Made by a program: the position numbers and the translations under genes
Shown: positions 1,016 to 63,034 of the stretch, one piece after another
Layout: each line of letters opens with the position of its first letter
Position numbering within the stretch: the stretch's first letter is position 1
Origin: Alphaproteobacteria bacterium
GTDB lineage: Bacteria; Pseudomonadota; Alphaproteobacteria; Rs-D84
Direction of reading: 5' to 3'
Length of the DNA: 64,000 nt
NCBI GenBank assembly: GCA_016927735.1
Contig: JAFGMC010000006.1
Span: 116,026-180,025 of the forward strand
Notes under the pieces: generated by a model
The model's database searches: none
Told to the model about the DNA's origin: nothing
The model's input: the letters and a program-made list of their open reading frames with translations, nothing else

Positions 1016-1663
1016 GTGTCAGACAGCATAGAACCGCCAATTTTGTTATCTAGATTGATGACTTTCGTATTTTCTGCTGCATTGGTTGTAGTTATTGTGC
1101 TCATAGTGACATTGGTAAAAATGTATCCTCTGAATAAAACACAAATATTCTTTTTAACGACCGCGCCTCGTAATGACTTGGAAATCAGACTTTCGCAATT
1201 TTCTCCGGATGAAGAAAATATAGAAATTTATAAACAGGCTTTTATCAAGGAATACATCAAGGCACGTAATGAAATTATTCCTAACGCTGGTGTTATGCAA
1301 CGCAAATGGTCCGCAACAGAAGATGGTACAGTTTATAAGTGGAGTAAGCCTGACGTATATTCTACATTTGCAAAAACTGCTATGTGGACCGCATATATGA
1401 ACGAGGTTCCAGATTTTGAATTTCATTGTCCAGTTGAATTTACAGGAATTGCACCACGTACAGAAAATACTTATGCAGTAAGCTTTAGATATTTCTGCAC
1501 AAATAGTGATGGACAGACCACCAAAAAAGATTATACAATTGTACTGAAATTAGAATTAGAGAACGTAATAAAATGGACCGATCGTCTGGATAATCCTCTG
1601 GGAATTCGTGTCGCTGAATATTCCGTGGAATCAGATAATGGTGATCCATTGGATTTTAAATAA
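1016..1663 (+). CDS. VirB8/TrbF-family T4SS inner-membrane component (VirB8-like)
   Basis: GTG start 8 nt after AAGGAG. There is a single N-terminal TM (LMTFVFSAALVVVIVLIVTLV) and then a periplasmic domain of about 170 aa. That domain ends in NPLGIRVAEY, the NPxG..V..Y signature found near the C-terminus of VirB8 proteins. It is directly followed by the VirB9- and VirB10-like genes. Confidence 0.65.
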   Translation: MSDSIEPPILLSRLMTFVFSAALVVVIVLIVTLVKMYPLNKTQIFFLTTAPRNDLEIRLSQFSPDEENIEIYKQAFIKEYIKARNEIIPNAGVMQRKWSATEDGTVYKWSKPDVYSTFAKTAMWTAYMNEVPDFEFHCPVEFTGIAPRTENTYAVSFRYFCTNSDGQTTKKDYTIVLKLELENVIKWTDRLDNPLGIRVAEYSVESDNGDPLDFK

Positions 1664-1691: not shown

Positions 1692-3167
1692 ATGATATTT
1701 TCGAAAATATTAAAAGTAAATTTATCTATTTTTTGTTTGTTAACTCTGGCTGTTATGCCAAATAATTTATTTGCCGAAGGTATTCAAGAAGCTTGGGATA
1801 ATCCAAATGCAAATATGGCATCCGGCAGTACAAAACCTGGATATGCTCAATTAACTTGGGTTTCTGGCAGTGTTTTACCAGTTAAATTACGCAACGGTAT
1901 GGTAACAATGGTAAATTTACCAGCTGGTGAACAAATCGAAGATGGTGTTGTTGGAAATCAAGATTTATTCGATTTTGATCCGCAAAAAAATGGGCGGTCT
2001 ATGTATATCACACCTGCGGGAAGTAATCAGGGGGCTGATACTAATTTGATTGTGACTGGAAAATCTGGAAATAAATATATTTTCTACCTTCGCAGTGAAC
2101 CCGCTAATTCCAGTGAAATAACATATTCACAGGTTGATATTGTTTTGGACTCGAACAGTTCTTTACCTGTTGCAAATAGTTCGTCTTCACAATCTGCTGG
2201 TATGAATTCGATATTTAAAAAAGTATCAACTAGCAGCAGTGTTGTTGGTGTTGATGGTGAAGATTATGGATGGATTAAATCAATGAAAATTGATCCATCT
2301 GAATTTCGTTTTGATTTGGATATATTTGTCCCAAATCCAGATGATTATGTAATTGCACCTGAACGCGTATGGCGCGACAGAATATTCACATACATTGATT
2401 TCGGTGACAAGGTTATTGCAATGACACAACGCCCAGTTGTATCATTGTTGGTTGAGGGTGGCGAGAGCCCAGTTGGTTTCCGTACTGATGGTGAAAACGG
2501 CAGACTGCTTATTATCGAAGCGGTTGGTGATATGGTTTTGCGTTCAGGTCAGCGAATTGTATGTATCAAGAAACGTGAAAAACCATTCTTGATTGCAGAT
2601 ACTGCAAGTGTTATGGCGCTGGCCGAAGCTAATGTTGCACAAAGCATGACATCTACCCAGTCATTGAATAATGTCGCTTATTCTAACACTGGGACAATGG
2701 TATCATCAAACGGGTACGGCGTTGCACCGACTATGAATTATGCTGCATCTGGTGTGGCAACAAATTATGGTTCATCCACAAGTGGTGTAAATATGTTACC
2801 AACCCAAAGAAATACTGCAGGCAGTTATTTACCACAAACAGGTATACCATTAATCAGCAGTAATCAAACAGGTGTTGCTGTTGAATTAAAATCTGATACT
2901 TCGGTCAAGGCACTGAATGATTATTGGACAGGATTATTGGCAAAGTTCAGTGGCGAAGATGGTAAAGGAATACTGACACCTTATAAAGGTATGGTATTCT
3001 TTGCAGTTGATGAACAAGGTGTTGGTGAATTGGGATCTGATTCTGCAACAGCCCGCTTATATCGACTGCGCATCGGTCCAATGTCTGATATCGATAATGC
3101 ACAAAAATTGTGCGACCAGATGTTAAAGTTCTCGGGCACTAGCTGTCACGTAGTAAGAATACAGTAA
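1692..3167 (+). CDS. VirB9/TrbG/CagX-family T4SS outer-membrane core component fused to a C-terminal SPOR-like domain
   Basis: Has a signal peptide. The N-domain reads ...MYITPAGSNQGADTNLIVTGKSGNKYIFYLRS (compare VirB9 TNL.V.T..R.Y.F.L). The C-domain reads PERVWRDRIFTYIDFGDK...PVVSLLVEGGESPVGFRTDG...MVLRSGQRIVCIKK. A linker of about 90 aa rich in S/T/N/G follows. The last 97 aa (from 2874) end in ARLYRLRIGPMSDIDNAQKLCDQMLKFSGTSCHVV, which is a SPOR-type pattern. Confidence 0.7.
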   Translation: MIFSKILKVNLSIFCLLTLAVMPNNLFAEGIQEAWDNPNANMASGSTKPGYAQLTWVSGSVLPVKLRNGMVTMVNLPAGEQIEDGVVGNQDLFDFDPQKNGRSMYITPAGSNQGADTNLIVTGKSGNKYIFYLRSEPANSSEITYSQVDIVLDSNSSLPVANSSSSQSAGMNSIFKKVSTSSSVVGVDGEDYGWIKSMKIDPSEFRFDLDIFVPNPDDYVIAPERVWRDRIFTYIDFGDKVIAMTQRPVVSLLVEGGESPVGFRTDGENGRLLIIEAVGDMVLRSGQRIVCIKKREKPFLIADTASVMALAEANVAQSMTSTQSLNNVAYSNTGTMVSSNGYGVAPTMNYAASGVATNYGSSTSGVNMLPTQRNTAGSYLPQTGIPLISSNQTGVAVELKSDTSVKALNDYWTGLLAKFSGEDGKGILTPYKGMVFFAVDEQGVGELGSDSATARLYRLRIGPMSDIDNAQKLCDQMLKFSGTSCHVVRIQ

Positions 3168-3187: not shown

Positions 3188-5497
3188 ATGGCAAATTTAA
3201 AAACACAATTTTCAGAATTAACAAAAAACACACCAAAGCATGTGCAATGGTTATTGCTGGCTGCGGCGTTTATAGTTGTTCTTATTTTACTGACCCTTTT
3301 ACTTCGCGGTGATAAGACGCAACCAGTCACAGAATCAAACGAAACAATACAAGCTGCTTTGAATATAGATCCCGATTCATTGGATTGGGCAACAACAAAA
3401 ATTGGTGAAACAAAAAACCAGAAATTTGTTATATCTTCAAATGTACCTGTAAAGATTGATGCGGTCCGTTTATCCAAGGATGTTTCTGGATTATCTAAAC
3501 CAAAAACAACTTGCACAAACATTGGTCAGATAAACGATAAAATTTCTTGTACGATAAGTATGGATTTTACACCAAGTACAGAAATGGATATTAATGCTGT
3601 ATCCCTGTTTATTGATTGGCGTGGTGCTGGACAACCCGAAAAAATGAACCGTACAGAAAAAATAGCAATTGCTATTGGTGCAATGCAAAAAGAAACACTA
3701 AAACAAGAACTTGTTCTTGAAAAAAAAACACAGATGAAACAAGAAATTGAATCTATTGCACAGGCCGATCCATTTCATTCTGAAAAAAAAGAACAAGAAA
3801 TTGTTAAACCAAAACAAGACACACGACCTGAACAACCTGCACCAAAACAAAAAAACGATGATATTAAAACAGGTGCAGAATCTTGTTCTGATTTTGCATT
3901 TCCTGGATACAATATAACTGGTCAACAAGTAGGTTGGATTAAACCTGAAAAAGGCAACTATAAATTTCATCCTTTTTCTGATACAAATTGTGATTCACCA
4001 ACTGGTATTTATAATCCAGATAATGGAATAATCACAGACATAAACGATACATCAAAAAAAATAGGAACTGATGCTGAACACATTGGATATGGGACTATAT
4101 TAAACAATGTTATTCCGGAACTTTCCAATCCTGTTAATTCACGTACTGTAAACAAAGCACGTCAATTAACCACTGCTGAATTGGAACTTAAACCATCTGG
4201 TAAATCTGCACGCGTATTTACCGCACCACCTGCGGATACAAAAATGTTACCGTCTTCTTTTGGCAGTGAAGCCACAGTTTCCAGTCGTCCATATGATCGT
4301 ACATTTGTATTGCGTCAATATAAACCAATCCCTGCAACAATCGTTTCAGAAATACGTGCAGTTGCCGGGGAAACACGTTTACCAGTGACCGCAACAGTGG
4401 ACAGAAATGTTTATTCTGATAATGGTCGCACAATTATTATTCCAGCTGGAACAATGATGTTGGGATCTGTTTCAGATAAAGATATGCCTGGTCCTTATAA
4501 AACAATCGGACGTGTTGGTATTGAATGGTATCGTTTTGTTCGTCCAGATGGTGTTGAATTTAATTTTGTTGGTAATAAACCTTTCTCGGCTGATGCCCAA
4601 GGACGCACCGGTGTTCCGGGACGCGGCAGCACGGATTATGTTGAACAATTCGTTATGCCAATGTTAACCGCTGTTGTACCAGCAGCAGTAAACATGATTG
4701 CCCCAATATCAGATAAATTTGTTAATCAAATTGATTTAGATAATAATACTGTGACACAAACCGGTCAGGTTCGTTCATCTGAACTTGCCAAGAATGAAAT
4801 TATTACCGCTTGGAACAAGGTCGCACAAAAATTATTGGTTGATATGATTGATAATACTGTCCCACCATTTTCAATTGCGGCTGGAACACGTATAACTGTA
4901 TTTTCACCTAATGATTTGATTGTGACATGTGGTCAGGACAGCGGTAAAAAATGTTCCATATCACCATATGATGAAAGTTACGCACCAACCGGAAACGCTA
5001 ATACATTTACAGTTGGTGTCAGCGAACCAGAAACATTGGTTGGTCAGGTTCGTTCATTTAACTTGGATCAATACTGTGATGGCAAAGGTGGTGTTTCGGC
5101 CAGTGCATCAACAATTCAAAGTGCAGGATTTGATTATCGTACAGTTGCATTCTATTGCCAATCAAATCAATACAAAGCAATTAATAATGCAAAGCAAGAA
5201 GCTGTTTATAAAAATCAACAAACAACAAGTCTAACTAACTCCGAAGGGCAGAAAATGCAACAAGGAACCAAAGACTATAATGAACAGGTTTTGGGCTTGA
5301 AATATAGTGAGGACGGTACTATACAGAATCCGTTTGAAAAAGCACCTGTTGAAAAAAAGGCTGTACTGACATGTGAAGATGGCACAGTACCAGATGCAAA
5401 TGGTTGTTGCACTGGGGAAACATATACAGATATGGGTGAACAAGGATTCAACTGTTGTCCAGGTTCTGGTGGGGATTGTTTTCCACCAATAAAATAA
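3188..5497 (+). CDS. VirB10/TrbI-family T4SS core component with extra N-proximal domain and Cys-rich C-terminal extension
   Basis: N-terminal TM (WLLLAAAFIVVLILLTLLL) and a Pro/Lys/Gln-rich spacer (KPKQDTRPEQPAPKQK). TrbI-domain motifs are present: VDRNVYSDNGRTIIIPAGTMMLGS, RVGIEWYRFVRPDGVEF, DAQGRTGVPGRGSTDYVEQF, GTRITVFSPNDLIV. About 190 further residues containing 10 Cys (my count) follow the canonical end. Confidence 0.8.
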   Translation: MANLKTQFSELTKNTPKHVQWLLLAAAFIVVLILLTLLLRGDKTQPVTESNETIQAALNIDPDSLDWATTKIGETKNQKFVISSNVPVKIDAVRLSKDVSGLSKPKTTCTNIGQINDKISCTISMDFTPSTEMDINAVSLFIDWRGAGQPEKMNRTEKIAIAIGAMQKETLKQELVLEKKTQMKQEIESIAQADPFHSEKKEQEIVKPKQDTRPEQPAPKQKNDDIKTGAESCSDFAFPGYNITGQQVGWIKPEKGNYKFHPFSDTNCDSPTGIYNPDNGIITDINDTSKKIGTDAEHIGYGTILNNVIPELSNPVNSRTVNKARQLTTAELELKPSGKSARVFTAPPADTKMLPSSFGSEATVSSRPYDRTFVLRQYKPIPATIVSEIRAVAGETRLPVTATVDRNVYSDNGRTIIIPAGTMMLGSVSDKDMPGPYKTIGRVGIEWYRFVRPDGVEFNFVGNKPFSADAQGRTGVPGRGSTDYVEQFVMPMLTAVVPAAVNMIAPISDKFVNQIDLDNNTVTQTGQVRSSELAKNEIITAWNKVAQKLLVDMIDNTVPPFSIAAGTRITVFSPNDLIVTCGQDSGKKCSISPYDESYAPTGNANTFTVGVSEPETLVGQVRSFNLDQYCDGKGGVSASASTIQSAGFDYRTVAFYCQSNQYKAINNAKQEAVYKNQQTTSLTNSEGQKMQQGTKDYNEQVLGLKYSEDGTIQNPFEKAPVEKKAVLTCEDGTVPDANGCCTGETYTDMGEQGFNCCPGSGGDCFPPIK

Positions 5498-6154: not shown

Positions 6155-6496
6155 ATGATTATCGGTTTTTCAAAAAAAACTTCAAAAACTTTATCAAAAA
6201 TATTTTGCAGAAATTTTCGACACTGTGTTGTTATTTTTCAAAATAAAAAAAATGATAATATTCTTATCCAGGTCGCTTCTGATGGTATTCGTTTAATAAA
6301 TATAAAACCATCAGGAATAGAAAAATTAATTTCTGCAGGTTGGGAATTTATAGAAATAAATAAAATAAATAAAACTATATTTAAAACACCAACTTTATTA
6401 ACATGCGTTGGTTTTGCAAAACACGCATTGGGTATAAATAACCCATTTATGTGGACACCAGATCAGCTTTACAGACATTTAAAAAAGCTGTTGTAA
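6155..6496 (+). CDS. Hypothetical protein, 113 aa, no family confidently recognised
   Basis: ORF preceded by AAAGGAA. No signal peptide. An ordered His (FRHCVVIF) then Cys (LLTCVGFAKHALGI) pattern is weakly reminiscent of permuted NlpC/P60-LRAT folds. This is very tentative. Confidence 0.5.
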   Translation: MIIGFSKKTSKTLSKIFCRNFRHCVVIFQNKKNDNILIQVASDGIRLINIKPSGIEKLISAGWEFIEINKINKTIFKTPTLLTCVGFAKHALGINNPFMWTPDQLYRHLKKLL

Positions 6497-26316: not shown

Positions 26317-26352
26317 TATATACTCCCTTGAAAAATCATTAATCGTGATTTA

Positions 26353-26916: not shown

Positions 26917-26918
26917 TC

Positions 26919-47388: not shown

Positions 47389-47898
47389 TTAATAACGACC
47401 AATGCATCCAAGATAAGAATTTCCGGTAGATTCCAACACATTTATAAATTGTGTTTGATTTTTACCAGAAAACAAAGCAATTATTGTCCCCGCATCAGTC
47501 GCCAACATATCGGCAACAGTTGCAATAGAAGAATTCATTTTTTTAAAAAAACCGCTGGCTGGGTATATTTCTGCGGCCAATAACTGGTTTTGACCTTTTT
47601 TAACAGGCTCTGAACCAATTTCAATTGCCATCAATTGGCATTCTGGGGAAATTATTATTTTATCAGTCACAGATGCATTACCACCCAATAACTCGCCCCA
47701 CCAGCCTGTTGATTCGCAAAATACAGGATAGTACAAAACGCTTTCTGGGTTTTTGGAGAGCAATTCAATAACATCAATATCACCACTGACAACCTCTGGC
47801 ATGATACCATGCATGGCACTTATCGTCTTGCGCGCCAACTGATATTCAGAATCACTGCTGGCTTTACGGGACCAATAAAGAATCGGAACTGACTTCAT
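47389..47898 (-). CDS. Hypothetical protein, 169 aa; possibly a divergent CinA/PncC-type domain
   Basis: FCESTGWWGELLGGNASV loosely resembles the AESCTGG..........GSS segment of PncC/CinA C-terminal domains. The size fits. This is weak. An extended -10 box, TGATATAAT, lies at 47907..47915, only 8 nt from the ATG. Confidence 0.3.
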   Translation of the reverse strand: MKSVPILYWSRKASSDSEYQLARKTISAMHGIMPEVVSGDIDVIELLSKNPESVLYYPVFCESTGWWGELLGGNASVTDKIIISPECQLMAIEIGSEPVKKGQNQLLAAEIYPASGFFKKMNSSIATVADMLATDAGTIIALFSGKNQTQFINVLESTGNSYLGCIGRY

Positions 47899-47966: not shown

Positions 47967-49274
47967 TTATTTTTTTACCGCACCACTAACGGATGTGTAC
48001 CATTTCTTGATATTTCCCCACACTTTATCTATATTATCTTTGGTGGTTTTATAATATGTATCTGGTATTTCCACATTTGCAAACAGTGTTTTTATTAATG
48101 TTGTTATCATTGCAATAAACATTGCAATAAACAATCCCATCAGAACAATTGTTATTAAACTATCATTATTCATCATCAGACCATCCATCAGAATTGTCGA
48201 ATCATTTTTTGCCAGCGCAGTTTGCAGTGCGGCCGCCCCCTGCCAATTTCCAAATACCGAATTTAAAAATATAATTGCAAACGAAACAAATACACCAATC
48301 ATCGCGATACCAGCAGTTCCTTTTATAACTTCATTTACAGTATCTTGAATGGATTTCGCGCCATTACCAGGTATGATTGACCAATCCTTGAATAACCAAC
48401 CCATTAAAAACATAGGCAACATTATTAAATTCATAGATAATTTTATAAATATCTCCAGAAAGTATAACGGTATCGGTAATAATGCAAAAAAGAACAATAC
48501 TAATATCAAAAGTCCAATAAAGAAAATTGGAATATTCGGAAAAAATGGCACATTCCATAAAATCTTGTGCATATATTGGGAATTAAATGACATATTCAAC
48601 ATTGTCCAACCAACTGTCATTCCCAAACCTGTCATTTGATGAACACCTGCCAACTCGCACGCCAAATTATGTCGCAATTTTGGTGAATATGCACCAGAAT
48701 TTGCAGCCGTACCATCTATTGAAATAGGATCTGCCAGGGCAGTTGCAACCACACATTCTGAAATTTTCTCGTTACCAGTCACAACCCTATTCAAAGATAA
48801 ACCCACATTAAATACAGGTTCTATAACCGCATTGGTTAATAAACGTGGTAATGGAAATGCCAACAAAGCTATAACAAAACCCAATTTTACAATATGTGTC
48901 CCAAAAATTCCTGCAATTGCCCATGGTTCTTCTGCCTTGTTTATTCCCAAATATCCAGATAACAATTTCCATGCAAACCAAACCGCTGTCAGCGCAATAC
49001 ACATCGGTATAATTGCATGACCAATTGCATTATACGCCCGTGGCAAGAGGTTTGACATTGTTGCCATAACGTCTGAAAACATCTGACATGACCAGCATGT
49101 CGAAAAGAAAGATAATGCATCCGCCATATTAACGGGGGCGACCGAACGATAAATAGAAAAACCGGCAATTACACCAATGCCTGCGATACCACCTATAACC
49201 AAAGGTGCAACTGCCCCTGCTGAAAAAGGCAAGAGAGATAAAAATACTATCCAAAACTTCTTTAATTTATTCAT
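47967..49274 (-). CDS. Polytopic membrane protein, paralogue 1 of 5 (VirB6/TrbL-like by architecture)
   Basis: 435 aa with a signal-like N-terminus and multiple TM spans. N-proximal CWSCQMFSDVM motif. A loop carries a Cys pair (ECVVAT...LACELAG). The C-terminal tail is DNIDKVWGNIKKWYTSVSGAVKK. It is divergent from the other four paralogues. Confidence 0.45.
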   Translation of the reverse strand: MNKLKKFWIVFLSLLPFSAGAVAPLVIGGIAGIGVIAGFSIYRSVAPVNMADALSFFSTCWSCQMFSDVMATMSNLLPRAYNAIGHAIIPMCIALTAVWFAWKLLSGYLGINKAEEPWAIAGIFGTHIVKLGFVIALLAFPLPRLLTNAVIEPVFNVGLSLNRVVTGNEKISECVVATALADPISIDGTAANSGAYSPKLRHNLACELAGVHQMTGLGMTVGWTMLNMSFNSQYMHKILWNVPFFPNIPIFFIGLLILVLFFFALLPIPLYFLEIFIKLSMNLIMLPMFLMGWLFKDWSIIPGNGAKSIQDTVNEVIKGTAGIAMIGVFVSFAIIFLNSVFGNWQGAAALQTALAKNDSTILMDGLMMNNDSLITIVLMGLFIAMFIAMITTLIKTLFANVEIPDTYYKTTKDNIDKVWGNIKKWYTSVSGAVKK

Positions 49275-49282
49275 TGGCTTTA

Positions 49283-49291
49283 ATTATATCA
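49283..49291 (-). promoter_or_regulatory. Extended -10 box TGATATAAT, 8 nt upstream of the paralogue-1 ATG
   Basis: The minus strand reads TGATATAAT-TAAAGCCA-ATG. No Shine-Dalgarno lies between. Confidence 0.4.
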
Positions 49292-49311
49292 TAAAAAGTT
49301 CATTGATTTTA

Positions 49312-49320
49312 TGGTATAAT
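49312..49320 (+). promoter_or_regulatory. Extended -10 box TGGTATAAT, 7 nt upstream of the paralogue-2 ATG
   Basis: The plus strand reads TGGTATAAT-TCTGTTC-ATG. No Shine-Dalgarno lies between. Confidence 0.4.
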
Positions 49321-49327
49321 TCTGTTC

Positions 49328-50587
49328 ATGAAGAAACTATTCTTTGCTGTTTTTTGCGCTTTATTATTTATCGTCCCCGCGCACGCCAGTTGGGGAATTG
49401 TAGACAGTTTGAATCTGGCGCCATTCGTCCCAATTGTTTTGGATGCGTTAATGTCAGTCGCAACGGGCAGTTATGAATTCTTTGTTGGTAATGGTACTGG
49501 TATTATTTATGTTTTTATCTGGGGTATTTTGGGTGTATCAATTGGTTTATACTTGGTTAAGATGTATTTTCCAAAATCTTGGTTGGGCTTCTTTGGTTTC
49601 AAGGGTGGTGGCGAAATGTGGGAAGGTAAAACCAGTGGTATGCAGATAACTGAAAAATTATTAAAAGATGCAATGCGTGCAATCATTGCTGCGACAATTT
49701 TATTGCAAATAAAACCTATTTATGTGACGGACTGGATTGTTAACCCTTTCTTGCGTTTTGGCGCAATTTATACAGAGAATATTACCGACAGTATAAATAT
49801 AAATGGCCAAAGTGCTAAAAAAATAAAATGTCCTAAATCAATTATTGAGAAAGGATGGATATCCGAAGACAGTTGCAACTTCTTGGTACAACCAGTATCT
49901 GTTTTATCAAATGCTAATAATCAAATTATAAAACGTGGTTTTGAATTTATAAATCGCGGATTAATTGGATTAATGACACTTGTACCACATGGTGGTGAAG
50001 ATTTTTTAAATTTACTGACCGGAATATTTTTGGTTTTTTCATTTGTATCCAGTAACTTTTTTATGGCTTTGCTTATCATACAGGGAATTTTTAATTTCGG
50101 AATGTCTCTGATTTTGTATCCTTTTCAGGTTTTAACATGGGTTGCAAAACCGAAGAATCCTGATAAATGGTTGGATTTCTGGCCTCCATTCGAAGGTATA
50201 ATTAAATCGTTACAACAATTGGTTATAACGATGATTGCGTGTTCTTTTATATTAGTGATTAACATTGCAATAATCCGGGCACTATTTCAGTGGAACAGCT
50301 CTGTATTCGTTGTGGCTGCTGGTGGGAGCGCAACCAGCAATGTTCCAACTGTTACAAACAGTGTAATGGGATTTGGACAGCATTCTATTTTATGGTTATC
50401 AACAATACTGACGTTTTATTTGATGTACAGAATATTTGATATGACACGCGATATGTTAAAGAAATATGCACCAGGTATGGATGGTTTGTATAACAAAGTC
50501 AAAGACGATCCAAAGAAAATTTTGGGAAATATTAAAAATCTTGGTTCCAAAATTGGAACTGCTGCGGGATGGATAAAAAAGAAATGA
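49328..50587 (+). CDS. Polytopic membrane protein, paralogue 2 of 5 (VirB6/TrbL-like by architecture)
   Basis: 419 aa. Signal peptide MKKLFFAVFCALLFIVPAHA. A loop carries a Cys pair (IKCPKS...DSCNFLVQP). The tail is DDPKKILGNIKNLGSKIGTAAGWIKKK. Confidence 0.45.
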   Translation: MKKLFFAVFCALLFIVPAHASWGIVDSLNLAPFVPIVLDALMSVATGSYEFFVGNGTGIIYVFIWGILGVSIGLYLVKMYFPKSWLGFFGFKGGGEMWEGKTSGMQITEKLLKDAMRAIIAATILLQIKPIYVTDWIVNPFLRFGAIYTENITDSININGQSAKKIKCPKSIIEKGWISEDSCNFLVQPVSVLSNANNQIIKRGFEFINRGLIGLMTLVPHGGEDFLNLLTGIFLVFSFVSSNFFMALLIIQGIFNFGMSLILYPFQVLTWVAKPKNPDKWLDFWPPFEGIIKSLQQLVITMIACSFILVINIAIIRALFQWNSSVFVVAAGGSATSNVPTVTNSVMGFGQHSILWLSTILTFYLMYRIFDMTRDMLKKYAPGMDGLYNKVKDDPKKILGNIKNLGSKIGTAAGWIKKK

Positions 50588-51774
50588 ACGGATGGATAAA
50601 CCCTTTGGTTGATGGATCTGTGCAGTGTTGGGGCTGCCCTATTTTCGACAGATTATTCCAGGTAATTTCATCAGCTGCGGGGGCAATTTATCGTCAATTT
50701 ACTTTATTTTGCATTTTAATATTTTGTCTAATTTTAGCATTTTATATTTTGAATACTGTTTGGAAGAATATCAAAGGTGGTGTGGAAGATCCTATGTATC
50801 AAAAATCTATCAAGCCTGTTTTAATTAATTCGCTTTTTGTTTTTGTTTTGCTGGGTCTGGGTTTATATCTGCCACGATTTATTTCAACCGTCACATTTGA
50901 ACCAGCAGCACAGATAACATTGACCTATACACAAAGTATGATAAATACGAATAATGAAATTGTGAATCAAAAGGTCACCTATCAACCACAACCAATGGAT
51001 GAAAATGGGTTTTATCGACCACAATTACGCGACACAATTATTATGTTAATGAAGACAACAATAACCCAATTCCAGTCATATATAAAATTAGGTGTTGCGA
51101 TTATGGACAAGGCTTTTTCTTGGTCAGCCCTTACAGGTATTGGCGCATTGGTGAAACATATTTTAATATTTGCGATGGGACTGTTCTTGGTCTATGGCTT
51201 TTTCAAAATATTCATAAAGTTTTGCTTTTATTTTGTAGATATTATTGTGGCAATGACATTCTTTGCATTCTTTTTTCCATTATCACTGGTAATGTTTGTG
51301 TTTAAGAATTCTGATGCACCAGATTGGATAAAATCCATTGGATCTGGATTGGGCGCGGATCAGTTTAAGAAAATTATAAATGCAATTATTTCACTGGCTT
51401 CTGCGGTTTTGACCTATACAGTTATAATGGTCATAATTGCAAAATTCTTCTCTGGTGATGGGGTATCAACAACTGACTTGATGCAGATGATAACCATTGG
51501 GGAAATATTTGCTGGTGCATTGTCTTATGATAACTTGGCAATGATGACAATTACCGGGTGCATTGTTTTGATATACGTTATTGACTTCTTGGCTGGTCAG
51601 GTACCAAAGGTCACAGAAATGGTTATGTCTGCATTTGATGTCAAAGAAGAAAAATCACTGAGTGAGGAAATGGGTAATAATGCATTAAAATTAACAACTA
51701 ATATTGCAAACACTTTAAAAAATATCGGGAAAACTGTTATTGATGGTGGAAAGAAAGAAGAAAAGAAAAAATAA
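50584..51774 (+). CDS. Polytopic membrane protein, paralogue 3 of 5 (VirB6/TrbL-like by architecture)
   Basis: The start is taken at MNGWINP, forming an ATGA overlap with the upstream stop; the ORF is open from 50569. CWGCPIFDRLF motif and multiple TM spans. The tail is LKNIGKTVIDGGKKEEKKK. Confidence 0.45.
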   Translation: MNGWINPLVDGSVQCWGCPIFDRLFQVISSAAGAIYRQFTLFCILIFCLILAFYILNTVWKNIKGGVEDPMYQKSIKPVLINSLFVFVLLGLGLYLPRFISTVTFEPAAQITLTYTQSMINTNNEIVNQKVTYQPQPMDENGFYRPQLRDTIIMLMKTTITQFQSYIKLGVAIMDKAFSWSALTGIGALVKHILIFAMGLFLVYGFFKIFIKFCFYFVDIIVAMTFFAFFFPLSLVMFVFKNSDAPDWIKSIGSGLGADQFKKIINAIISLASAVLTYTVIMVIIAKFFSGDGVSTTDLMQMITIGEIFAGALSYDNLAMMTITGCIVLIYVIDFLAGQVPKVTEMVMSAFDVKEEKSLSEEMGNNALKLTTNIANTLKNIGKTVIDGGKKEEKKK

Positions 51775-53205
51775 ATGCTGAAAGCAAAACTGATTCAAAT
51801 TGCTGTAAAATTTATTATGGGCGCAATTGCGTTGGGTGTTGGTATTTGGTATTTATCATCTTCTATTGGTGGTGCCAGTATAGGATACACCAGCCTGAAT
51901 AGTTTTCTTTCTGCAATTGGTGTTCAAAATGGCGATATTGCCAGCGCAAATGGTTGTTTTTTGTGCGGATATATTGAAAAATTATTTGCAGCAATTGGAA
52001 ATGCGGCGGAAAACTTTTGGATCGCTATGGTGGATAATATTTGGATATTATTGGCGATTGGATTTGGAATATTCCTATTTTACACAACAATAATACATCT
52101 TTATGACGCTTCCAAAAAAAATGTTAGTTTAGATGAGTCTGAAAAAAAAATAGAATTCAAACCTTGGTTCGACAAAATTTGGAAACAAGGTGTACGTGTT
52201 ATGATGGCAGGTGCATTGTTGGGGATCTTGGGATTTGGTGGTACAATTGTTTTAAAACAAATCACAAATATTACAATAACCCCCGTTATGTTCGTTGGCG
52301 CAGAATTATCAATGGCGGCAACTGGGGTTTCTGATTCTGCCCAATGTGGAACATCAATCCAGAATGATGATATTTTAAATCCTGTTTTAAAACCTTTTAT
52401 GTGTGTGGTTGGAAATTTAAACACCGTAATGCTGGCAGGGGCCGCCGGTGGATTTTCATTAATGAATTATTCCTGGATGGGTATGGGTGGTGGTTTGTTC
52501 ACATGGCTTGCAGGATTGGCACTGGTCATAATGTTTTTGGTTATTGGATTTAATTTATTCTTTGACATTTTATCTGTTATTTTCAAACTGGTATTTTTAA
52601 TAATATTCTTGCCGCTTATTATCGCAGCGGGTGCATTTGAAGGAACATGGGGATTGGCGAACGGTGTTGTTTCTAATTCAATAAATATGCTGGTAAAATC
52701 CGCCATCAGAATTGTCGCAATAGCACTGAAGATATTAATAACCTATGCGATTGTATCTTTTGCAGCCGATGAATATTTCCCAGGACCCAATGATGGTTAT
52801 AATGCGATACTGCCACCACTTGTTACCGAGAAATCACAAAAAATGAATGACCAAGCATTATCTGTTATGTCAGTATTTTCAAATTGTGAAAAGGTATCAA
52901 TTGTAAATGGTGCGGTAGATAAAGAATTATTCAAGAATTGTTTTACCGCCAATCGCGCCCAGGTAGAACGCAGATATCCCGGGGCATTTGATTTTATGGG
53001 AAATGGGTTTGAATTTTTATTATTATGGTTTGGTATATTCTTTTTATATTTCTATGTAATGTCCCAAAAAATTGATACTTTGTTGGGTAAAGATAGCAAG
53101 GAAGAATTTGATTATGGTAATTGGATCAAAGACCTTGGAAAACGCATCTGGGGTGCACCAGCACAAATTACTGAACAAATCACAAAAGCAACGGAGAAGA
53201 AATGA
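51775..53205 (+). CDS. Polytopic membrane protein, paralogue 4 of 5 (VirB6/TrbL-like by architecture)
   Basis: 476 aa. It starts immediately after the upstream TAA. CFLCGYIEKLF motif. A loop carries a Cys pair (AQCGTS...PFMCVVGN). The tail is NWIKDLGKRIWGAPAQITEQITKATEKK. Confidence 0.45.
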   Translation: MLKAKLIQIAVKFIMGAIALGVGIWYLSSSIGGASIGYTSLNSFLSAIGVQNGDIASANGCFLCGYIEKLFAAIGNAAENFWIAMVDNIWILLAIGFGIFLFYTTIIHLYDASKKNVSLDESEKKIEFKPWFDKIWKQGVRVMMAGALLGILGFGGTIVLKQITNITITPVMFVGAELSMAATGVSDSAQCGTSIQNDDILNPVLKPFMCVVGNLNTVMLAGAAGGFSLMNYSWMGMGGGLFTWLAGLALVIMFLVIGFNLFFDILSVIFKLVFLIIFLPLIIAAGAFEGTWGLANGVVSNSINMLVKSAIRIVAIALKILITYAIVSFAADEYFPGPNDGYNAILPPLVTEKSQKMNDQALSVMSVFSNCEKVSIVNGAVDKELFKNCFTANRAQVERRYPGAFDFMGNGFEFLLLWFGIFFLYFYVMSQKIDTLLGKDSKEEFDYGNWIKDLGKRIWGAPAQITEQITKATEKK

Positions 53206-54557
53206 TAAAAAAATTTCTTGTTCTTTGTTGTTTATTGTTTGCTTTTACCAGCAATGTTTTTGCTGCTTCAAATATTCCAAGTGGTGATGTCGGGAATTTT
53301 GGCGCATGGGCAACCGAACATAACCGTGAATTATTTGTAAATAATCTGACTGATGATATTTCAGCATTTCAAGCCGGATTCCAAAAAAATGTCCTGGTCA
53401 AAGATTATGTACCAATTGAGGCAAAAGTGGGGCTGGCATTTATGGGTGGAATGTCAATGGTCGGTGGTGTATTGGAACGTTCACTGGTCAGATTTATCAG
53501 TATATTCTTGATTGTAATGTTTGTATTCTGGGTTATGTTAGAGGCCTATCAAATGATGAAGGCGACACAAAAATCACGTGAATTAATCGAAGAAATAATC
53601 AAGAAAGCTGTTTTAATTACAATATGGATTTGGATAATTCAACAAGGTCCAGCGCAACTGTTTATGTGGATTATGGGACCTGTTATAACCATTGGAACAT
53701 ACTTGTCCGATTTAATTTTAAATTCGATTACATCAACGGCCGGGGTTTCACTGCCAGACACTTGCACAGCGATACATAACTATGTTGCAAACACACCTTC
53801 AAGTTATGCGATTTTGGATTCAACACAAACAGCAAACCTGCTTTGTGTTCCAACACGTCTTTCCGGATTCTTTTATACAGCAGTTGCAATGGGTTGGAAA
53901 TGGATATTGGTAGGAATTGGTACCAGCGCATTTACATTTGCGGCGGGGGCAACATTTGTTGTGTTGTTTATTTATAATATTTGGAAGTTTGCACTGATGG
54001 CATTTTCTGTAATTGCAGATTTATTCCTGGGGATAATGATGTTGCCATTCACCGCAATTGCTCAATGCTTTGGTGGAAAATCATCAACAAACACTCCTTT
54101 TGGTGCGCCGCTGGATGCACTTGGAAGCGGTGGCAATGGCAAGACAACATATGATGGTTATGCGGGTAAAATATTTAATGGATTCTTGGACTTATTTAAT
54201 ACAAAGAATTTTTCACTGGATGCACAAATAAAAAGATTTATAAACGCGATGATTTATTTTGTATCACTGTCAATTGTGATTGCATTATGTGCCGCGATAT
54301 TATCTGGTGTTGTGGATGTTGATATAGCGACACAAATTCCAACATTGAAAAATGATAGTTTTATGACAGTATTAATTGTCGGTTTTCTTGTTACATATTT
54401 GGCATCAACGGCTGGTGATATTGCAAAGAACATTGGTGGAAATATTGATGGATCAAAAGAATTTACAAAATTCGGTGATGATATTAAAAAGCTTTGGGGA
54501 AATACAACCAAGACCGCACAGGATTGGTACAAGGCTGCCCGTGGTGGAAAGAAATAG
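53202..54557 (+). CDS. Polytopic membrane protein, paralogue 5 of 5 (VirB6/TrbL-like by architecture)
   Basis: 451 aa with an ATGA overlap with the upstream gene. Signal peptide ..FTSNVFA. A loop carries a Cys pair (DTCTAIH...LLCVPTRL). The tail is DDIKKLWGNTTKTAQDWYKAARGGKK. Confidence 0.45.
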   Translation: MIKKFLVLCCLLFAFTSNVFAASNIPSGDVGNFGAWATEHNRELFVNNLTDDISAFQAGFQKNVLVKDYVPIEAKVGLAFMGGMSMVGGVLERSLVRFISIFLIVMFVFWVMLEAYQMMKATQKSRELIEEIIKKAVLITIWIWIIQQGPAQLFMWIMGPVITIGTYLSDLILNSITSTAGVSLPDTCTAIHNYVANTPSSYAILDSTQTANLLCVPTRLSGFFYTAVAMGWKWILVGIGTSAFTFAAGATFVVLFIYNIWKFALMAFSVIADLFLGIMMLPFTAIAQCFGGKSSTNTPFGAPLDALGSGGNGKTTYDGYAGKIFNGFLDLFNTKNFSLDAQIKRFINAMIYFVSLSIVIALCAAILSGVVDVDIATQIPTLKNDSFMTVLIVGFLVTYLASTAGDIAKNIGGNIDGSKEFTKFGDDIKKLWGNTTKTAQDWYKAARGGKK

Positions 54558-57417: not shown

Positions 57418-59709
57418 TCAAGGTTCAACCAAAAGATCAGAAATACATTGCGCGCCTGATGTTGCACCTGTAGAAGTTGTTGTATAACCACTCGCACAAG
57501 ATGTACATGCTGTAGTTTCAGTAATACCGCCCCAATATGTACCAATTGGACAATCATTACAAACACCAACCGAACTACGATATTCACCAGCAGCGCAAGT
57601 AGTTGCACAAGTGCCACTCCATACAGTATAACCAACAGAACATTTACAGCGTTCGTTTACATAACCTTGTACCGTTCCATTTGCAGAAACTGTTCCAGAA
57701 ACAGACTGGTAAACAGAATTATCTGGACATAATAATGACTGATAGAACATTTCAGAAATATTATTTATACATGTTGTATCACTGACACATAAACCAGTTG
57801 TATCATGTGCAAACACAGCATAAGCACAAGTCAGAGCAACATTATGACATGCACCACGCATAACATTATATACACTGGTGATACTTGCAGTTGAAGACCA
57901 AGCGTTAACCTGACTGACCTGTTGATTATAACAGCTTGCAATATCAACCATACAATTTCCTGCATAATCAGATATTATCTGTTGTTGTGCTGCTTGTATA
58001 TTTACCATTGCACGTTGAATGTAATTTATAACAACATCATTATATGGTTTATATGTATTATTTGAATCATATGTGTAATACTGACACTTATCCAGAACCG
58101 CACGACACAAACCACCATCTGTTGATTTCTGACCAGTTCCTATTTTTTCCAACAAGTATCTAACTATACAACTTCCATTATTATAAGTAGTTGCACATTG
58201 GGTCAAATTTACAGTACTGGCAGTTTCTAAAAAAGTTGAATCTATTGTGGAATTATTATAAGAAGTCATAAAATCTATAATATTAGATATATCCTGACCC
58301 AAGATAACACCACCATTTTCATCAATATATTTCTTTGTTGGATCTAAACACTTCGTATAATCAGAACCACAAACCATATCATCAAGCATACATGTATTCA
58401 GTGCAGATATACATCCCTTGGCGTCATATTGATTTTTATTTTGAAGAACAGCCAAACGAGCTTTTTGCAACATTTGATTTGCACTGCGAACGTTTGATTT
58501 CAAAGTATCGTTCATTTTGGTCAGACCTTGTTCATAAGCAATACAATCTTTGTCTATTGCCAGGTCATAATTTCCAGTTATTTGTTGTGGTGTTGCCCCA
58601 GCATTTTTACATTGTGTTAAAACAGAATTACAACGCTTTTTTGCTGCACTGTAAAGTTCTGTACCACGCAAATTAGAAAAACTGGATGTACTGTTACCCA
58701 AGAAATCCAAACTGAATAAGTCTGAAGTTGATGTGCTTGAAGAAAAATCCAAATCCATATCTAATCCAGTATATGTATCACCAGAATAAGATGTTGCACT
58801 GGTTGGATTTTTTATTAATTTTTCAATCTCGTCCAACATACTGCGTGATTCGGTTGTATCTTTTGTTCCATCTAATACTTCTTCTGCCTCGGTTGCGGAC
58901 ATAATCGCACGAATTTCATCAGCAGATAACCCAACATAGCGAATACGTTGTGCCACTTCATTTAAATCTGAATTAGCTTCTTTAACAGCGGATTCAACCT
59001 TGGTATATTTTGAAAGATTTGATGAACAAGAACAACGTTTTTGGTTTGCATCAATAACTGCACAAAATTGATCCATACAATCGTTGTACTGTTGTTGGCA
59101 AGATTTGTTTAAATCAGCTGTTTCTTGTAAACGCGTTGTGGCTTCTTTTATTGATTCTTTTGTATCTGATTTTGCTGCACGATTTTGAACAGTGCGACCA
59201 CTATTAAAATTGAAATTAGAACCTGTTTGAACATCAGTACCATCAATGGTTGCGCGGCCACCTACTTCTGCGGTAGATGGTCGTAAATATATGCCAGCAC
59301 GACGAACAGCAGCTGTATTATTTATACTGGCTGCTTGTGTACGTGCACTGCGTCCAACAGTATTAACAGTTTCTTCTAATGATTCACGTTGACCAAGCGA
59401 TGCAACACCAGATCTAGAAATTGCATTTCTTGTAGCAGGTACAGCATTACGAGAATTTTCATTATTTTGATTTATTATCGCAGTTCTGGAAACCAAAGAC
59501 CCAACATCATCAGATTCATTTATATCTTGTAAATTTTTTGAAGCGACTGTTCTTGTTACGATTGCACGTGATACAACAGCAGGCACGGGTTCTTCTATAA
59601 TTTTATTATTTGATGATGGAACAGCACGTGAAATATTTACAGCATCACCAGCAATACCTGTTGAAGCATAAAAAAACATAATTAAAAAACATAAAACGAT
59701 TTTCTTCAC
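57418..59709 (-). CDS. Large secreted Cys-rich protein A (763 aa), paralogue of 60716..62797
   Basis: GTG start after GGGGGCAGGCGA. Signal peptide MKKIVLCFLIMFFYASTGIAG. About 170 aa of Ser/Arg/Asn/Thr/Val-rich sequence with VSR-type motifs follows. The rest is a Cys-framework domain starting CQQQYNDCMDQFCAVIDANQKRCSCSS. I counted 32 Cys in the mature part by hand. Confidence 0.6.
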   Translation of the reverse strand: MKKIVLCFLIMFFYASTGIAGDAVNISRAVPSSNNKIIEEPVPAVVSRAIVTRTVASKNLQDINESDDVGSLVSRTAIINQNNENSRNAVPATRNAISRSGVASLGQRESLEETVNTVGRSARTQAASINNTAAVRRAGIYLRPSTAEVGGRATIDGTDVQTGSNFNFNSGRTVQNRAAKSDTKESIKEATTRLQETADLNKSCQQQYNDCMDQFCAVIDANQKRCSCSSNLSKYTKVESAVKEANSDLNEVAQRIRYVGLSADEIRAIMSATEAEEVLDGTKDTTESRSMLDEIEKLIKNPTSATSYSGDTYTGLDMDLDFSSSTSTSDLFSLDFLGNSTSSFSNLRGTELYSAAKKRCNSVLTQCKNAGATPQQITGNYDLAIDKDCIAYEQGLTKMNDTLKSNVRSANQMLQKARLAVLQNKNQYDAKGCISALNTCMLDDMVCGSDYTKCLDPTKKYIDENGGVILGQDISNIIDFMTSYNNSTIDSTFLETASTVNLTQCATTYNNGSCIVRYLLEKIGTGQKSTDGGLCRAVLDKCQYYTYDSNNTYKPYNDVVINYIQRAMVNIQAAQQQIISDYAGNCMVDIASCYNQQVSQVNAWSSTASITSVYNVMRGACHNVALTCAYAVFAHDTTGLCVSDTTCINNISEMFYQSLLCPDNSVYQSVSGTVSANGTVQGYVNERCKCSVGYTVWSGTCATTCAAGEYRSSVGVCNDCPIGTYWGGITETTACTSCASGYTTTSTGATSGAQCISDLLVEP

Positions 59710-62797: not shown

Positions 62798-63034
62798 GGT
62801 AATCTCCAAATTTTCGCATTCACGAAAAATGATTAGTTCAAGTGCGTCGCAACAGCGCAGCACTTATTTACTTGTCATAATTATAACATTTTTAGATTGG
62901 TGTGTAAATAAGAAAACCGTCCACAATAAAAGATATTATATTGATATAAAGTTACGCTTATTATGAATACGTTCTTATTCTTATAAGCACTCAAATCATT
63001 GACTTATTTAATATTTAAGAATAAAATTAAAAAC

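What the first reader, a model, noticed from the sequence alone, without database searches (positions are those of the whole stretch)
47967..54557. Array of five paralogous polytopic membrane proteins, VirB6/TrbL-like in architecture, detached from any virB3/virB4
One gene is on the minus strand. Four tightly coupled genes are on the plus strand, joined by an ATGA overlap, a TAA-ATG abutment and another ATGA overlap. They encode 400-476-aa proteins with signal-like N-termini, many TM spans and a hydrophilic loop. In four of the five the loop carries a Cys pair. This 6.6 kb of paralogous membrane proteins is the largest non-housekeeping block in the window. Tandem expansion of VirB6 is a hallmark of Rickettsiales T4SS: five rvhB6 genes in Rickettsia and four virB6 genes in Anaplasma/Ehrlichia, but there they follow virB3-virB4. 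Here the flanks are rpmE plus a small ORF on one side and uvrD on the other. I cannot confirm TrbL/VirB6 homology by eye, so this may instead be a new family.
Basis: partly seen in the sequence, partly recalled or inferred. Interest (0 to 1): 0.65.

Follow-up and report, generated by a model that had tools for sequence, protein, structure and literature searches.

The report
Five divergent VirB6-like secretion-system genes
A reduced-genome gut bacterium (Candidatus Enterousia) carries five very divergent, unannotated copies of VirB6, the inner-membrane base protein of type IV secretion systems, and the copy number matches both the five VirB6 copies of Rickettsia and the five-fold symmetry of the solved VirB6 assembly.

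Summary
Five real genes (396-476 aa; one on the minus strand, four translationally coupled on the plus strand) lie at 47967-54557. All 79 untruncated Candidatus Enterousia / order Rs-D84 loci examined keep them in the same order. The five are distant paralogues (at most 27% identity; family-vs-family hhalign 75-97% on the connecting pairs).

Pfam, NCBIfam and PDB sequence searches do not recognise them. Four indirect lines tie them to VirB6/TrbL:
- A 230-sequence superfamily profile matches ten plasmid VirB6/TrbL proteins at 95.6% (local) and 97.3% (global) over 254-297 columns. Controls give 1% or less.
- An AlphaFold model of M5 (pLDDT 83) has R388 TrwI/VirB6 chains as its top three Foldseek PDB hits. 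These matches are weak.
- Relatives in equivalent arrays of other lineages reach or approach the Pfam TrbL threshold.
- The window itself encodes VirB8, VirB9 and VirB10, and other Enterousia species carry a stand-alone virD4.

Best reading: inner-membrane/stalk-base subunits of a chromosomally scattered, Rickettsiales-like type IV secretion system. This is a new variant of a known kind. Six further loci from outside the Enterousia genome set also keep exactly five copies, which makes a heteropentamer hypothesis testable. VirB4 and VirB11 could not be looked for in this genome.

The parts
47967..49274 (-). M1, VirB6/TrbL-like paralogue, 435 aa. It has an N-terminal signal/TM segment, a CWSC motif (C60/C63) and a loop Cys pair (C174/C206). 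It is transcribed divergently from the other four.
   Evidence: ORF. About 880 database relatives, all unnamed. Cys residues invariant. hhalign to M3 96.7% and to M5 94.7%. Member of the superfamily profile that matches VirB6.
49275..49327 (.). 53-bp divergent intergenic region between M1 and M2. It presumably holds the promoters of both transcription units (inferred).
   Evidence: Sequence. The consensus promoter scan of the region gave no more hits than shuffles, so the promoter assignment is inference only.
49328..50587 (+). M2, VirB6/TrbL-like paralogue, 419 aa. It has a cleavable-looking signal peptide, no CxxC motif, and a loop Cys pair C168/C183.
   Evidence: It is the most divergent member. 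It joins the family through M5 (hhalign 95.3%) and M1 (75%).
50584..51774 (+). M3, VirB6/TrbL-like paralogue, 396 aa. Its start overlaps the M2 stop (ATGA). It has no N-terminal hydrophobic segment, a CWGC motif (C20/C23), and no loop Cys pair.
   Evidence: hhalign to M1 96.7%.
51775..53205 (+). M4, VirB6/TrbL-like paralogue, 476 aa. It has an N-terminal TM anchor, a CFLC motif (C61/C64), and two conserved Cys pairs (C191/C210, C371/C389).
   Evidence: hhalign to M5 88.6% and to M1 80%. The fourth gene of the long-form arrays (L092 510 aa, L101 526 aa) scores best with the M4 HMM at 67-73 bits.
53202..54557 (+). M5, VirB6/TrbL-like paralogue, 451 aa. It has a signal peptide and a loop Cys pair C188/C215. 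This is the paralogue that was modelled.
   Evidence: AlphaFold2 pLDDT 83.3, pTM 0.74. Foldseek top hits are TrwI/VirB6: 8rtd_L prob 0.98, 8rt9_F 0.93, 7o3v_F 0.92. Residues 84-416 align to VirB6 residues 23-285 in hhalign.
1016..1663 (+). VirB8 homologue, the first gene of a separate T4SS islet 44 kb from the array.
   Evidence: Pfam PF04335 VirB8, 55.2 bits, E 1.1e-14, above the cut-off.
1692..3167 (+). VirB9/CagX homologue with a C-terminal SPOR domain.
   Evidence: Pfam PF03524 CagX, 75.7 bits, plus SPOR. NCBIfam VirB9 E 1e-13, below that model's cut-off.
3188..5497 (+). VirB10/TrbI homologue with a Cys-rich C-terminal extension.
   Evidence: Pfam PF03743 TrbI, 68.8 bits. NCBIfam T4SS_VirB10 E 9e-19, below that model's cut-off. 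tblastn hits to 552 plasmid VirB10/TrbI genes.

Best explanation
The five genes encode very divergent members of the VirB6/TrbL family. VirB6/TrbL is the polytopic inner-membrane protein that forms the base of the central stalk of P-type type IV secretion systems.

The host is a Candidatus Enterousia bacterium: order Rs-D84, Alphaproteobacteria, genome under 1 Mb, probably partner-dependent. Its T4SS genes are scattered in chromosomal islets, as in Rickettsiales. One islet is this five-copy VirB6 array. A second is virB8-virB9-virB10, 44 kb away. In congeners a third is a solitary virD4.

Proposed mechanism, inferred from the solved R388 system. The N-terminal helices anchor the proteins in the inner membrane. 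The Cys-containing loop and the CxxC region face the periplasm and are disulfide-stabilised. The lysine-rich C-terminal helix stays in the cytoplasm. Together the proteins build the platform on which pilin or substrate passes from the inner-membrane ATPase complex toward the VirB8/9/10 envelope-spanning part.

Shown: gene reality, conservation, paralogy, remote homology to VirB6, and presence of VirB8/9/10.

Inferred: membrane topology, disulfides, assembly into a working T4SS, and what that T4SS transports.
For: 1. Profile-profile comparison. A 230-sequence superfamily alignment against ten plasmid VirB6/TrbL proteins gives 95.6% probability, E 1.1e-8, 254 columns in local mode and 97.3%, 297 columns in global mode. 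M5 residues 84-416 align to VirB6 residues 23-285, and the family-invariant Pro (M5 P282) falls on the conserved VirB6 Pro. Alignments A2 and A3 independently give 94.8% and 94.1%. Controls: reversed alignments 0.2-1.0%; FtsW and MraY alignments from the same genomes below 1%.

2. Structure. The M5 model (pLDDT 83.3) has TrwI/VirB6 chains as the three best of 350,542 PDB chains, with Foldseek probabilities 0.98, 0.93 and 0.92. Further TrwI chains rank 9, 10 and 40. No hit from another entry exceeds 0.30.

3. Transitivity. The superfamily profile finds 856 representative proteins at E<=1e-3. Among these, P0498 scores 25.6 bits and P0475 21.2 bits against Pfam TrbL. Other members of the equivalent five-gene arrays hit the same part of TrbL: L092 551-aa at 28.1 bits (above the 25.9 cut-off) and L092 510-aa at 19.0 bits. 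Precomputed weak TrbL hits are also on record for L092 and L102 proteins.

4. Context. VirB8, VirB9 and VirB10 are in the window. A virD4 scoring 184 bits to PF02534 sits among housekeeping genes in three other Enterousia species.

5. Architecture. Hydropathy and the AF2 secondary structure give long hydrophobic helices, a 70-90-aa hydrophilic loop after the second TM, and a basic C-terminal tail. In Rickettsia the five RvhB6 duplicates differ by about 80% in their TrbL domains, those domains average 413 aa, and the T4SS genes lie in scattered islets (PMC2653234).

6. Strict conservation in a genome of about 0.7-1 Mb argues for an important function.
Against: - None of M1-M5, nor their family or superfamily consensus sequences, hits Pfam TrbL or any NCBIfam T4SS model, even at E<=1.
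- Family HMMs do not score six canonical VirB6/TrbL sequences.
- tblastn against 72,556 plasmids finds nothing.
- The Foldseek matches are weak in absolute terms: E 0.05-0.14, TM-score 0.27-0.29 normalised to the query and 0.37-0.42 to the target, rmsd about 12 A.
- The hhalign result depends on how match columns are set. With -M first it drops to 77.7% over 68 columns.
- Individual families give less than 25% against VirB6.
- VirB4, VirB11, VirB2 and VirB3 were not found within 10 kb of the array in about 90 loci, or anywhere in the 64-kb window. Their presence in this genome is untested.
- No virD4 is in the window.
Confidence: 0.74

Rival explanations
1. The proteins descend from VirB6 but no longer work in a secretion machine. 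In an organism that lacks standard sugar, amino-acid and peptide transporters, the five proteins would act on their own as a membrane scaffold, pore or cell-contact device for acquiring metabolites from a partner cell.
For: The array is never next to virB3/virB4 or any other T4SS gene in about 90 loci from several lineages. Rs-D84 genomes are reported to lack standard uptake transporters and to encode many hypothetical membrane proteins that may serve transport or cell interaction (PMC12306168). The family has lineage-specific features absent from canonical VirB6: the CWxC motif and disulfide-type Cys pairs. VirB4 and VirB11 were not seen.
Against: VirB8/9/10 are retained in the same small genome, and VirD4 in congeners. 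That retention is hard to explain without a working T4SS, which needs a VirB6. No other VirB6 candidate is in the window. In Rickettsia the T4SS genes likewise lie in separate chromosomal islets.
Confidence: 0.14
2. The T4SS that these VirB6-like proteins serve is a ComB-type DNA-uptake system working with ComEC, not an effector or DNA export system. It would supply nucleotides or DNA to a bacterium that cannot synthesise nucleotides.
For: ComEC is encoded in the window at 18010-19365 (PF03772, 182 bits). The VirB10 homologue also matches the ComB10 model, E 2e-14. Rickettsia VirB7/VirB9 are reported to resemble ComB7/ComB9 (PMC2653234). Rs-D84 lacks nucleotide biosynthesis.
Against: VirB10 scores higher against the VirB10 model than against the ComB10 model, 67.9 against 53.4 bits. 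Congeners keep a VirD4 coupling protein, which from general knowledge of the Helicobacter ComB system is not part of that system and points to substrate export. No ComB-specific gene was identified.
Confidence: 0.15
3. The five proteins are a new family of polytopic membrane proteins unrelated to VirB6, such as a transporter. Under this reading the profile and fold similarities only reflect generic long hydrophobic helices.
For: No direct Pfam, NCBIfam or PDB sequence hit. Foldseek E-values are above 0.01 and TM-scores below 0.5. hhalign is sensitive to settings.
Against: Composition-matched controls (reversed alignments, and FtsW and MraY from the same genomes) give 1% or less, against 94-97% for VirB6. 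Four independent relatives hit the same part of Pfam TrbL (profile positions about 79-191), one of them above the curated cut-off. The only structural matches with probability above 0.3 come from R388 T4SS stalk entries, and the top three are TrwI/VirB6 chains. No transporter family matched.
Confidence: 0.07

Closest known systems
Rickettsia RvhB6a-e: five tandem VirB6-like genes of the Rickettsiales vir homolog T4SS
   Same: Five tandem, mutually very divergent TrbL/VirB6-domain paralogues. In Rickettsia they differ by about 80% (PMC2653234); here identity is at most 27%. The Rickettsia TrbL/VirB6 domains average 413 aa, similar to the 396-476 aa here. In both, the T4SS genes are chromosomal, vertically inherited and scattered in islets, and the host is a reduced-genome alphaproteobacterium.
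   Different: RvhB6 proteins are 674-1154 aa with long flanking extensions, and they are recognised by Pfam and COG. The Enterousia proteins are domain-only and invisible to Pfam. According to the finding, the Rickettsiales arrays follow virB3-virB4. Here no VirB4 lies within 10 kb and one copy is inverted. The CWxC motif and conserved loop Cys pairs set this family apart from the ten canonical plasmid VirB6/TrbL proteins compared here; they were not looked for in RvhB6. The host is in order Rs-D84, a gut lineage. Whether the five-fold duplication is shared with Rickettsia or independent was not tested.
TrwI/VirB6 of plasmid R388 (PDB 7O3V, 8RT9, 8RTD)
   Same: Best structural match of the M5 model. 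Profile-profile alignment with canonical VirB6 covers almost the whole VirB6 core. Both are all-helical with long hydrophobic helices. TrwI has seven long helices, five of them mostly hydrophobic (PMC9259494).
   Different: TrwI is a single-copy protein; the matched chains are 188-272 residues and it forms a homopentamer. The proteins here are about 1.5 times longer, come as five distinct paralogues, and have extra N-terminal and loop segments with conserved cysteines. TM-scores are only 0.27-0.42.
Long-form VirB6-like arrays in other uncultured gut Alphaproteobacteria (loci L087, L092, L101, L102)
   Same: Same superfamily: 44-124 bits against the A2 profile. Again exactly five members per complete array, with housekeeping flanks and the CWxC motif. 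The fourth gene is M4-like.
   Different: All five genes are on one strand. The proteins are 474-861 aa. An 86-88-aa two-TM ORF precedes the first gene. Several members are detectable by Pfam TrbL.

Membership tests
TrbL/VirB6 (Pfam PF04610) | Direct match of the protein to the family profile at or above the curated gathering score (25.9 bits) | tested here: not met
   No TrbL hit at E<=1 for M1-M5 or for the family and superfamily consensus sequences. This criterion is operational, not biological. Relatives in equivalent arrays do reach it or approach it: L092 551-aa 28.1 bits, P0498 25.6 bits.
TrbL/VirB6 (Pfam PF04610) | Homology to canonical VirB6/TrbL proteins detectable by profile-profile comparison over the conserved core | tested here: met
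   hhalign gives 95.6% local and 97.3% global over 254-297 columns, E 1e-8 to 7e-11, and 94.8% and 94.1% with A2 and A3. Controls give 1% or less. Caveats: only ten canonical sequences were used, and the result drops to 77.7% over 68 columns with other column settings.
TrbL/VirB6 (Pfam PF04610) | Fold similar to a solved VirB6 (TrwI of R388) | tested here: inconclusive
   TrwI chains are ranks 1-3 of 350,542 PDB chains, with probabilities 0.92-0.98. However E is 0.05-0.14, TM-score 0.27-0.42 and rmsd about 12 A. A monomer model was compared with chains taken from an assembled pentamer.
TrbL/VirB6 (Pfam PF04610) | Polytopic inner-membrane protein with a sizeable periplasmic loop after the first TM pair and a cytoplasmic C-terminus | tested here: inconclusive
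   Hydropathy and AF2 secondary structure fit this: TM segments, a 70-90-aa hydrophilic loop with conserved Cys pairs, and a Lys-rich C-terminal tail. No dedicated topology predictor or experiment was available.
TrbL/VirB6 (Pfam PF04610) | Co-occurrence with the other core T4SS genes in the same replicon | tested here: inconclusive
   VirB8, VirB9 and VirB10 are present in the window. VirD4 is present in three congeners. VirB4, VirB11, VirB2 and VirB3 are not in the window or in any flank. The rest of the genome could not be searched.
TrbL/VirB6 (Pfam PF04610) | Assembles as a pentamer at the base of the T4SS stalk | not testable with these tools
   Known for TrwI (PMC9259494). No multimer prediction was available.
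Rickettsiales rvh-type T4SS with expanded VirB6 | Four or five tandem, highly divergent VirB6 paralogues | tested here: met
   Five paralogues here, in all 79 untruncated Enterousia-set loci, and in six further loci found by other routes: L087, L092, L093, L100, L101 and L002.
Rickettsiales rvh-type T4SS with expanded VirB6 | VirB6 array directly follows virB3-virB4 | tested here: not met
   No VirB3 or VirB4 similarity within 10 kb in about 90 loci. The flanks are rpmE and uvrD.
Rickettsiales rvh-type T4SS with expanded VirB6 | T4SS genes scattered in several chromosomal islets, vertically inherited | tested here: met
   virB8-10 lie 44 kb from the array. virD4 is solitary in congeners. The array is syntenic across the genus. 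GC content is uniform across the window.
Rickettsiales rvh-type T4SS with expanded VirB6 | VirB6 paralogues carry long N- or C-terminal extensions (674-1154 aa in Rickettsia) | tested here: not met
   The window proteins are 396-476 aa. Extensions do occur in related lineages, where the proteins reach 510-1018 aa.
Known membrane transporter families | Match to any curated transporter profile | tested here: not met
   Only sub-threshold noise in Pfam and NCBIfam.

The most novel reading that the evidence does not exclude
The five paralogues are obligate partners that assemble one copy each into a heteropentameric stalk base. On this reading the C5-symmetric VirB6 homopentamer of conjugative systems has been replaced by five specialised subunits. 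That would explain why exactly five copies are retained, at 27% identity or less, in every Rs-D84-related array seen, whether short-form or long-form, and also in Rickettsia. It would also offer an answer to the long-standing question of why Rickettsiales multiply VirB6.
Probability: 0.22. Interest if true: 0.75.

Novelty: new variant of a known kind. Interest (0 to 1): 0.52.

Why it matters
- These proteins are labelled 'hypothetical' wherever a source names them, and no listed homologue carries a T4SS-related Pfam domain. Recognising them as VirB6 homologues assigns a function to about 0.8% of a genome under 1 Mb. It also shows that Candidatus Enterousia / Rs-D84, a widespread gut lineage thought to depend on partner cells, keeps type IV secretion genes, which may be its main interaction device.
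- A hallmark thought typical of Rickettsiales, a multi-copy and highly divergent VirB6, extends to a separate, non-intracellular gut order. This bears on when the rvh-type system and its VirB6 expansion arose.
- Five paralogues in every lineage, set against the five-fold symmetry of the solved VirB6 assembly, give a concrete hypothesis that multimer prediction can test.
- The family profile (856 representative clusters at E<=1e-3) could seed a new Pfam/NCBIfam model for a VirB6 subfamily that annotation currently misses.

Tried and rejected
- Direct family searches of the five proteins (Pfam, NCBIfam) gave only noise.
- Consensus sequences emitted from family and superfamily HMMs, scanned against Pfam, gave no TrbL hit.
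- PDB sequence searches with M1, the M1 profile and the superfamily profile found nothing relevant.
- tblastn of M1 and of the TrbL-positive relative P0498 against 72,556 plasmids found no match.
- Family HMMs against six plasmid VirB6/TrbL sequences gave no meaningful score.
- AlphaFold on M1 with only close orthologues gave pLDDT 48.8, unusable and not searched.
- hhalign of single ortholog families against VirB6 gave less than 25%. Only the superfamily alignments work.
- The promoter and terminator consensus scan of the array was no better than shuffles.
- Look-ups of the window's own VirB8 and VirB9 to walk outside the window found them not on record.
- R388 by accession is not in the plasmid collection.
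- The Enterousia genome paper (Begmatov 2023) is not held. No paper combines Rs-D84 with type IV secretion.
- The 86-88-aa ORF upstream of the long-form arrays was tested as a possible VirB3 or VirB2 and showed no similarity.
- A recent mobile element was considered and rejected. The array and its flanks are syntenic across the genus and GC content is uniform.

Full report
**Observation**

The five ORFs exist as described:

| Gene | Coordinates | Strand | Length |
|---|---|---|---|
| M1 | 47967-49274 | - | 435 aa |
| M2 | 49328-50587 | + | 419 aa |
| M3 | 50584-51774 | + | 396 aa |
| M4 | 51775-53205 | + | 476 aa |
| M5 | 53202-54557 | + | 451 aa |

- The junctions are an ATGA overlap, a TAA-ATG abutment and a second ATGA overlap.
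- The M3 start at the overlap is confirmed by the orthologue consensus 'MNxW' and by the gene as called on another contig.
- A simple hydropathy scan shows several hydrophobic spans, a 70-90-aa hydrophilic loop after the second span, and a Lys-rich C-terminal tail in all five.
- The loop Cys pairs in M1, M2, M4 and M5 are 99-100% conserved among about 80 orthologues each.
- M3 lacks an N-terminal hydrophobic segment.

**Reality and conservation**

- Each protein searched has hundreds of database relatives. All are unnamed or 'hypothetical', and none carries a meaningful Pfam domain.
- A genome scan returned 80 loci. They are titled Candidatus Enterousia, 'Rickettsiales bacterium' or uncultured Alphaproteobacteria, and come from animal and human guts. 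Two are complete chromosomes of 0.72 and 0.96 Mb.
- In 79 of 79 untruncated loci the order is M5-M4-M3-M2 <-> M1. The remaining loci are cut by contig ends.
- The same flanks recur: uvrD on one side; a 169-aa ORF, rpmE, an inositol monophosphatase and PBP1A on the other.
- This is a core, vertically inherited feature of the lineage. That lineage is order Rs-D84, described as genome-reduced, fermentative, lacking standard uptake transporters and probably dependent on partner cells (PMC12306168).

**Paralogy**

- Pairwise identity is only 20-27%.
- hhalign between the five ortholog-family alignments links them into one superfamily, mostly over near-full-length, colinear alignments: M1-M3 96.7%, M2-M5 95.3%, M1-M5 94.7%, M4-M5 88.6%, M1-M4 80%, M1-M2 75%.
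- A MAFFT superfamily alignment, A2, lines up the CxxC motif, the Cys pair, and four invariant residues: two Pro and two Gly.

**Is it VirB6/TrbL?**

The direct tests are negative:
- No TrbL hit in Pfam or NCBIfam for the proteins.
- None for HMM consensus sequences.
- Nothing in PDB by sequence.
- Nothing by tblastn in plasmids.
- No score of the family HMMs on six canonical VirB6/TrbL proteins.

Four indirect lines are positive.

(i) Profile-profile comparison.
- I took ten canonical VirB6/TrbL proteins from annotated plasmid T4SS operons.
- Against their alignment, A2 gives 94.8% (234 columns). A3, made of 64 diverse representatives, gives 94.1% (257 columns).
- A 230-sequence alignment fitted to the A2 HMM gives 95.6% local and 97.3% global over 254-297 columns.
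- In that alignment M5 residues 84-416 pair with VirB6 residues 23-285, and the invariant Pro of the family falls on the conserved Pro of VirB6.
- Reversed alignments give 0.2-1.0%. FtsW and MraY alignments from the same genomes give below 1%.
- The result is not fully robust. With first-sequence match columns it falls to 77.7% over 68 columns, and single families stay below 25%.

(ii) Structure.
- AlphaFold on M1 with close orthologues failed (pLDDT 49).
- M5 with the superfamily alignment gave pLDDT 83.3 and pTM 0.74.
- Foldseek against the PDB put TrwI/VirB6 chains of the R388 T4SS at ranks 1-3, with probabilities 0.98, 0.93 and 0.92. Further TrwI chains rank 9, 10 and 40.
- No hit from any other entry exceeds probability 0.30. 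E-values (0.05-0.14) and TM-scores (0.27-0.42) are weak.

(iii) Transitivity.
- A scan of 1.84 billion representative proteins with the A2 profile found 856 hits at E<=1e-3.
- Two distant long hits match Pfam TrbL just under the cut-off: P0498 at 25.6 bits and P0475 at 21.2 bits, against a gathering score of 25.9.
- Their contigs carry equivalent arrays.
- In L092 the first gene scores 28.1 bits, above the cut-off, and the fourth scores 19.0 bits.
- All these genes match the A2 profile at 44-124 bits.

(iv) Context.
- The window encodes VirB8 (1016-1663), VirB9/CagX (1692-3167) and VirB10/TrbI (3188-5497).
- Three other Enterousia species have a solitary virD4 (PF02534, 184 bits) among housekeeping genes a few kb from the array.

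**Comparison with Rickettsiales**

- Gillespie et al. report five Rickettsia VirB6 duplicates that differ by about 80% in their TrbL domains. Those domains average 413 aa, the full proteins are 674-1154 aa, and the T4SS genes lie in five scattered islets (PMC2653234).
- The Enterousia array shares the copy number, the divergence, the domain size and the scattered layout.
- It differs in five ways: it lacks the extensions, it is not adjacent to virB3/virB4, one copy is inverted, it has conserved cysteine motifs, and annotation profiles do not see it.
- Related gut lineages (L087, L092, L101, L102) have long forms of 474-861 aa, all on one strand, preceded by a small two-TM ORF.
- Every complete array seen has exactly five members.

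**Mechanism**

- In R388 the stalk base is a pentamer of VirB6 inserted in the inner membrane, with a VirB5 pentamer on top. It is proposed as the site where VirB2 pilin is recruited and assembled (PMC9259494).
- By homology I infer that M1-M5 form this base in an Enterousia T4SS whose envelope-spanning part is VirB8/9/10. The Cys-rich parts would be periplasmic and the basic tails cytoplasmic.
- What the system transports is open. The VirD4 in congeners suggests export. ComEC in the window and the ComB10-like score of VirB10 keep DNA uptake possible.
- The match between five paralogues and C5 symmetry suggests a heteropentamer. That is speculation. It could not be tested here.

**Limits**

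- VirB4, VirB11, VirB2 and VirB3 could not be searched for in the rest of this genome.
- The canonical VirB6 alignment has only ten sequences.
- Topology is inferred from hydropathy only.

**Verdict**

- The feature is a strongly divergent, unannotated VirB6/TrbL subfamily, fixed at five copies, in a reduced-genome gut alphaproteobacterium. It is a new variant of a known kind, of moderate interest.
- It also offers a testable idea about why some lineages keep five VirB6 proteins.

Noticed in passing
window 1016-5497 (+): A virB8-virB9-virB10 islet lies next to tRNA-Trp (600-673). VirB9 carries a C-terminal SPOR (peptidoglycan-binding) domain. VirB10 is 769 aa, with a long N-terminal region and a Cys-rich C-terminal extension. 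No virB11 or virD4 follows; only two small ORFs of 115 and 113 aa with no family hits.
   Followed up: partly
window 57418-59709 (-): A 763-aa protein with a signal peptide and very many cysteines. It has a sub-threshold ephrin-receptor-like Cys-rich repeat at its C-terminus (21.8 bits) and no other family hit. It lies just beyond uvrD and dnaQ from the array. Orthologues in L002/L003 are 1063-1065 aa. It is possibly a surface or adhesion protein.
   Followed up: partly
window 47389-47898 (-): A 169-aa ORF with no Pfam or NCBIfam hit and no obvious TM segment. It sits directly beside M1 in every Rs-D84 locus inspected (169-175 aa). Whether it belongs functionally to the array is unknown.
   Followed up: partly
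L082 12957-15206 (-); L073 17352-19595 (-); L048 about 4002-6287 (-): A solitary virD4/T4SS coupling-protein gene (749 aa, PF02534 184 bits) sits among housekeeping genes (IMPase, RsmE, pseudouridine synthase, MutS) in three other Enterousia species. It is not present at the corresponding place in the window.
   Followed up: partly
L087 4967-5227; L092 6061-6327; L101 about 5787-6047; L102 1015-1275: A conserved 86-88-aa ORF with two TM segments and a basic tail lies immediately upstream of the first VirB6-like gene in the long-form arrays. It is absent in Enterousia. No similarity to VirB2 or VirB3 was detected.
   Followed up: partly
L004 4439-4816 (-) and 15284-15652 (+): In a termite-gut relative, a 125-aa gene with a 23S_rRNA_IVP (PF05635, Avd-like) domain is inserted between the M2 and M3 orthologues. 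A second copy nearby also hits bAvd (PF22296). This may hint at a diversity-generating retroelement accessory gene.
   Followed up: no
window 18010-19365 (+): A ComEC competence-channel homologue (PF03772, 182 bits) in a genome that lacks nucleotide biosynthesis. It is relevant to the DNA-uptake reading of the T4SS.
   Followed up: no
window 22706-28223 (-): An RND efflux gene cluster is retained in this very small genome: AcrB-type pump (23299-26316, PF00873, 581 bits), a probable membrane-fusion protein (26353-26916, assigned by position and by synteny with L093), and an outer-membrane factor (26919-28223, PF02321).
   Followed up: no
window 60716-62863 (-) and 38132-39400 (-): Two further sizeable ORFs, 715 aa and 422 aa, have no significant Pfam or NCBIfam match.
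   Followed up: no
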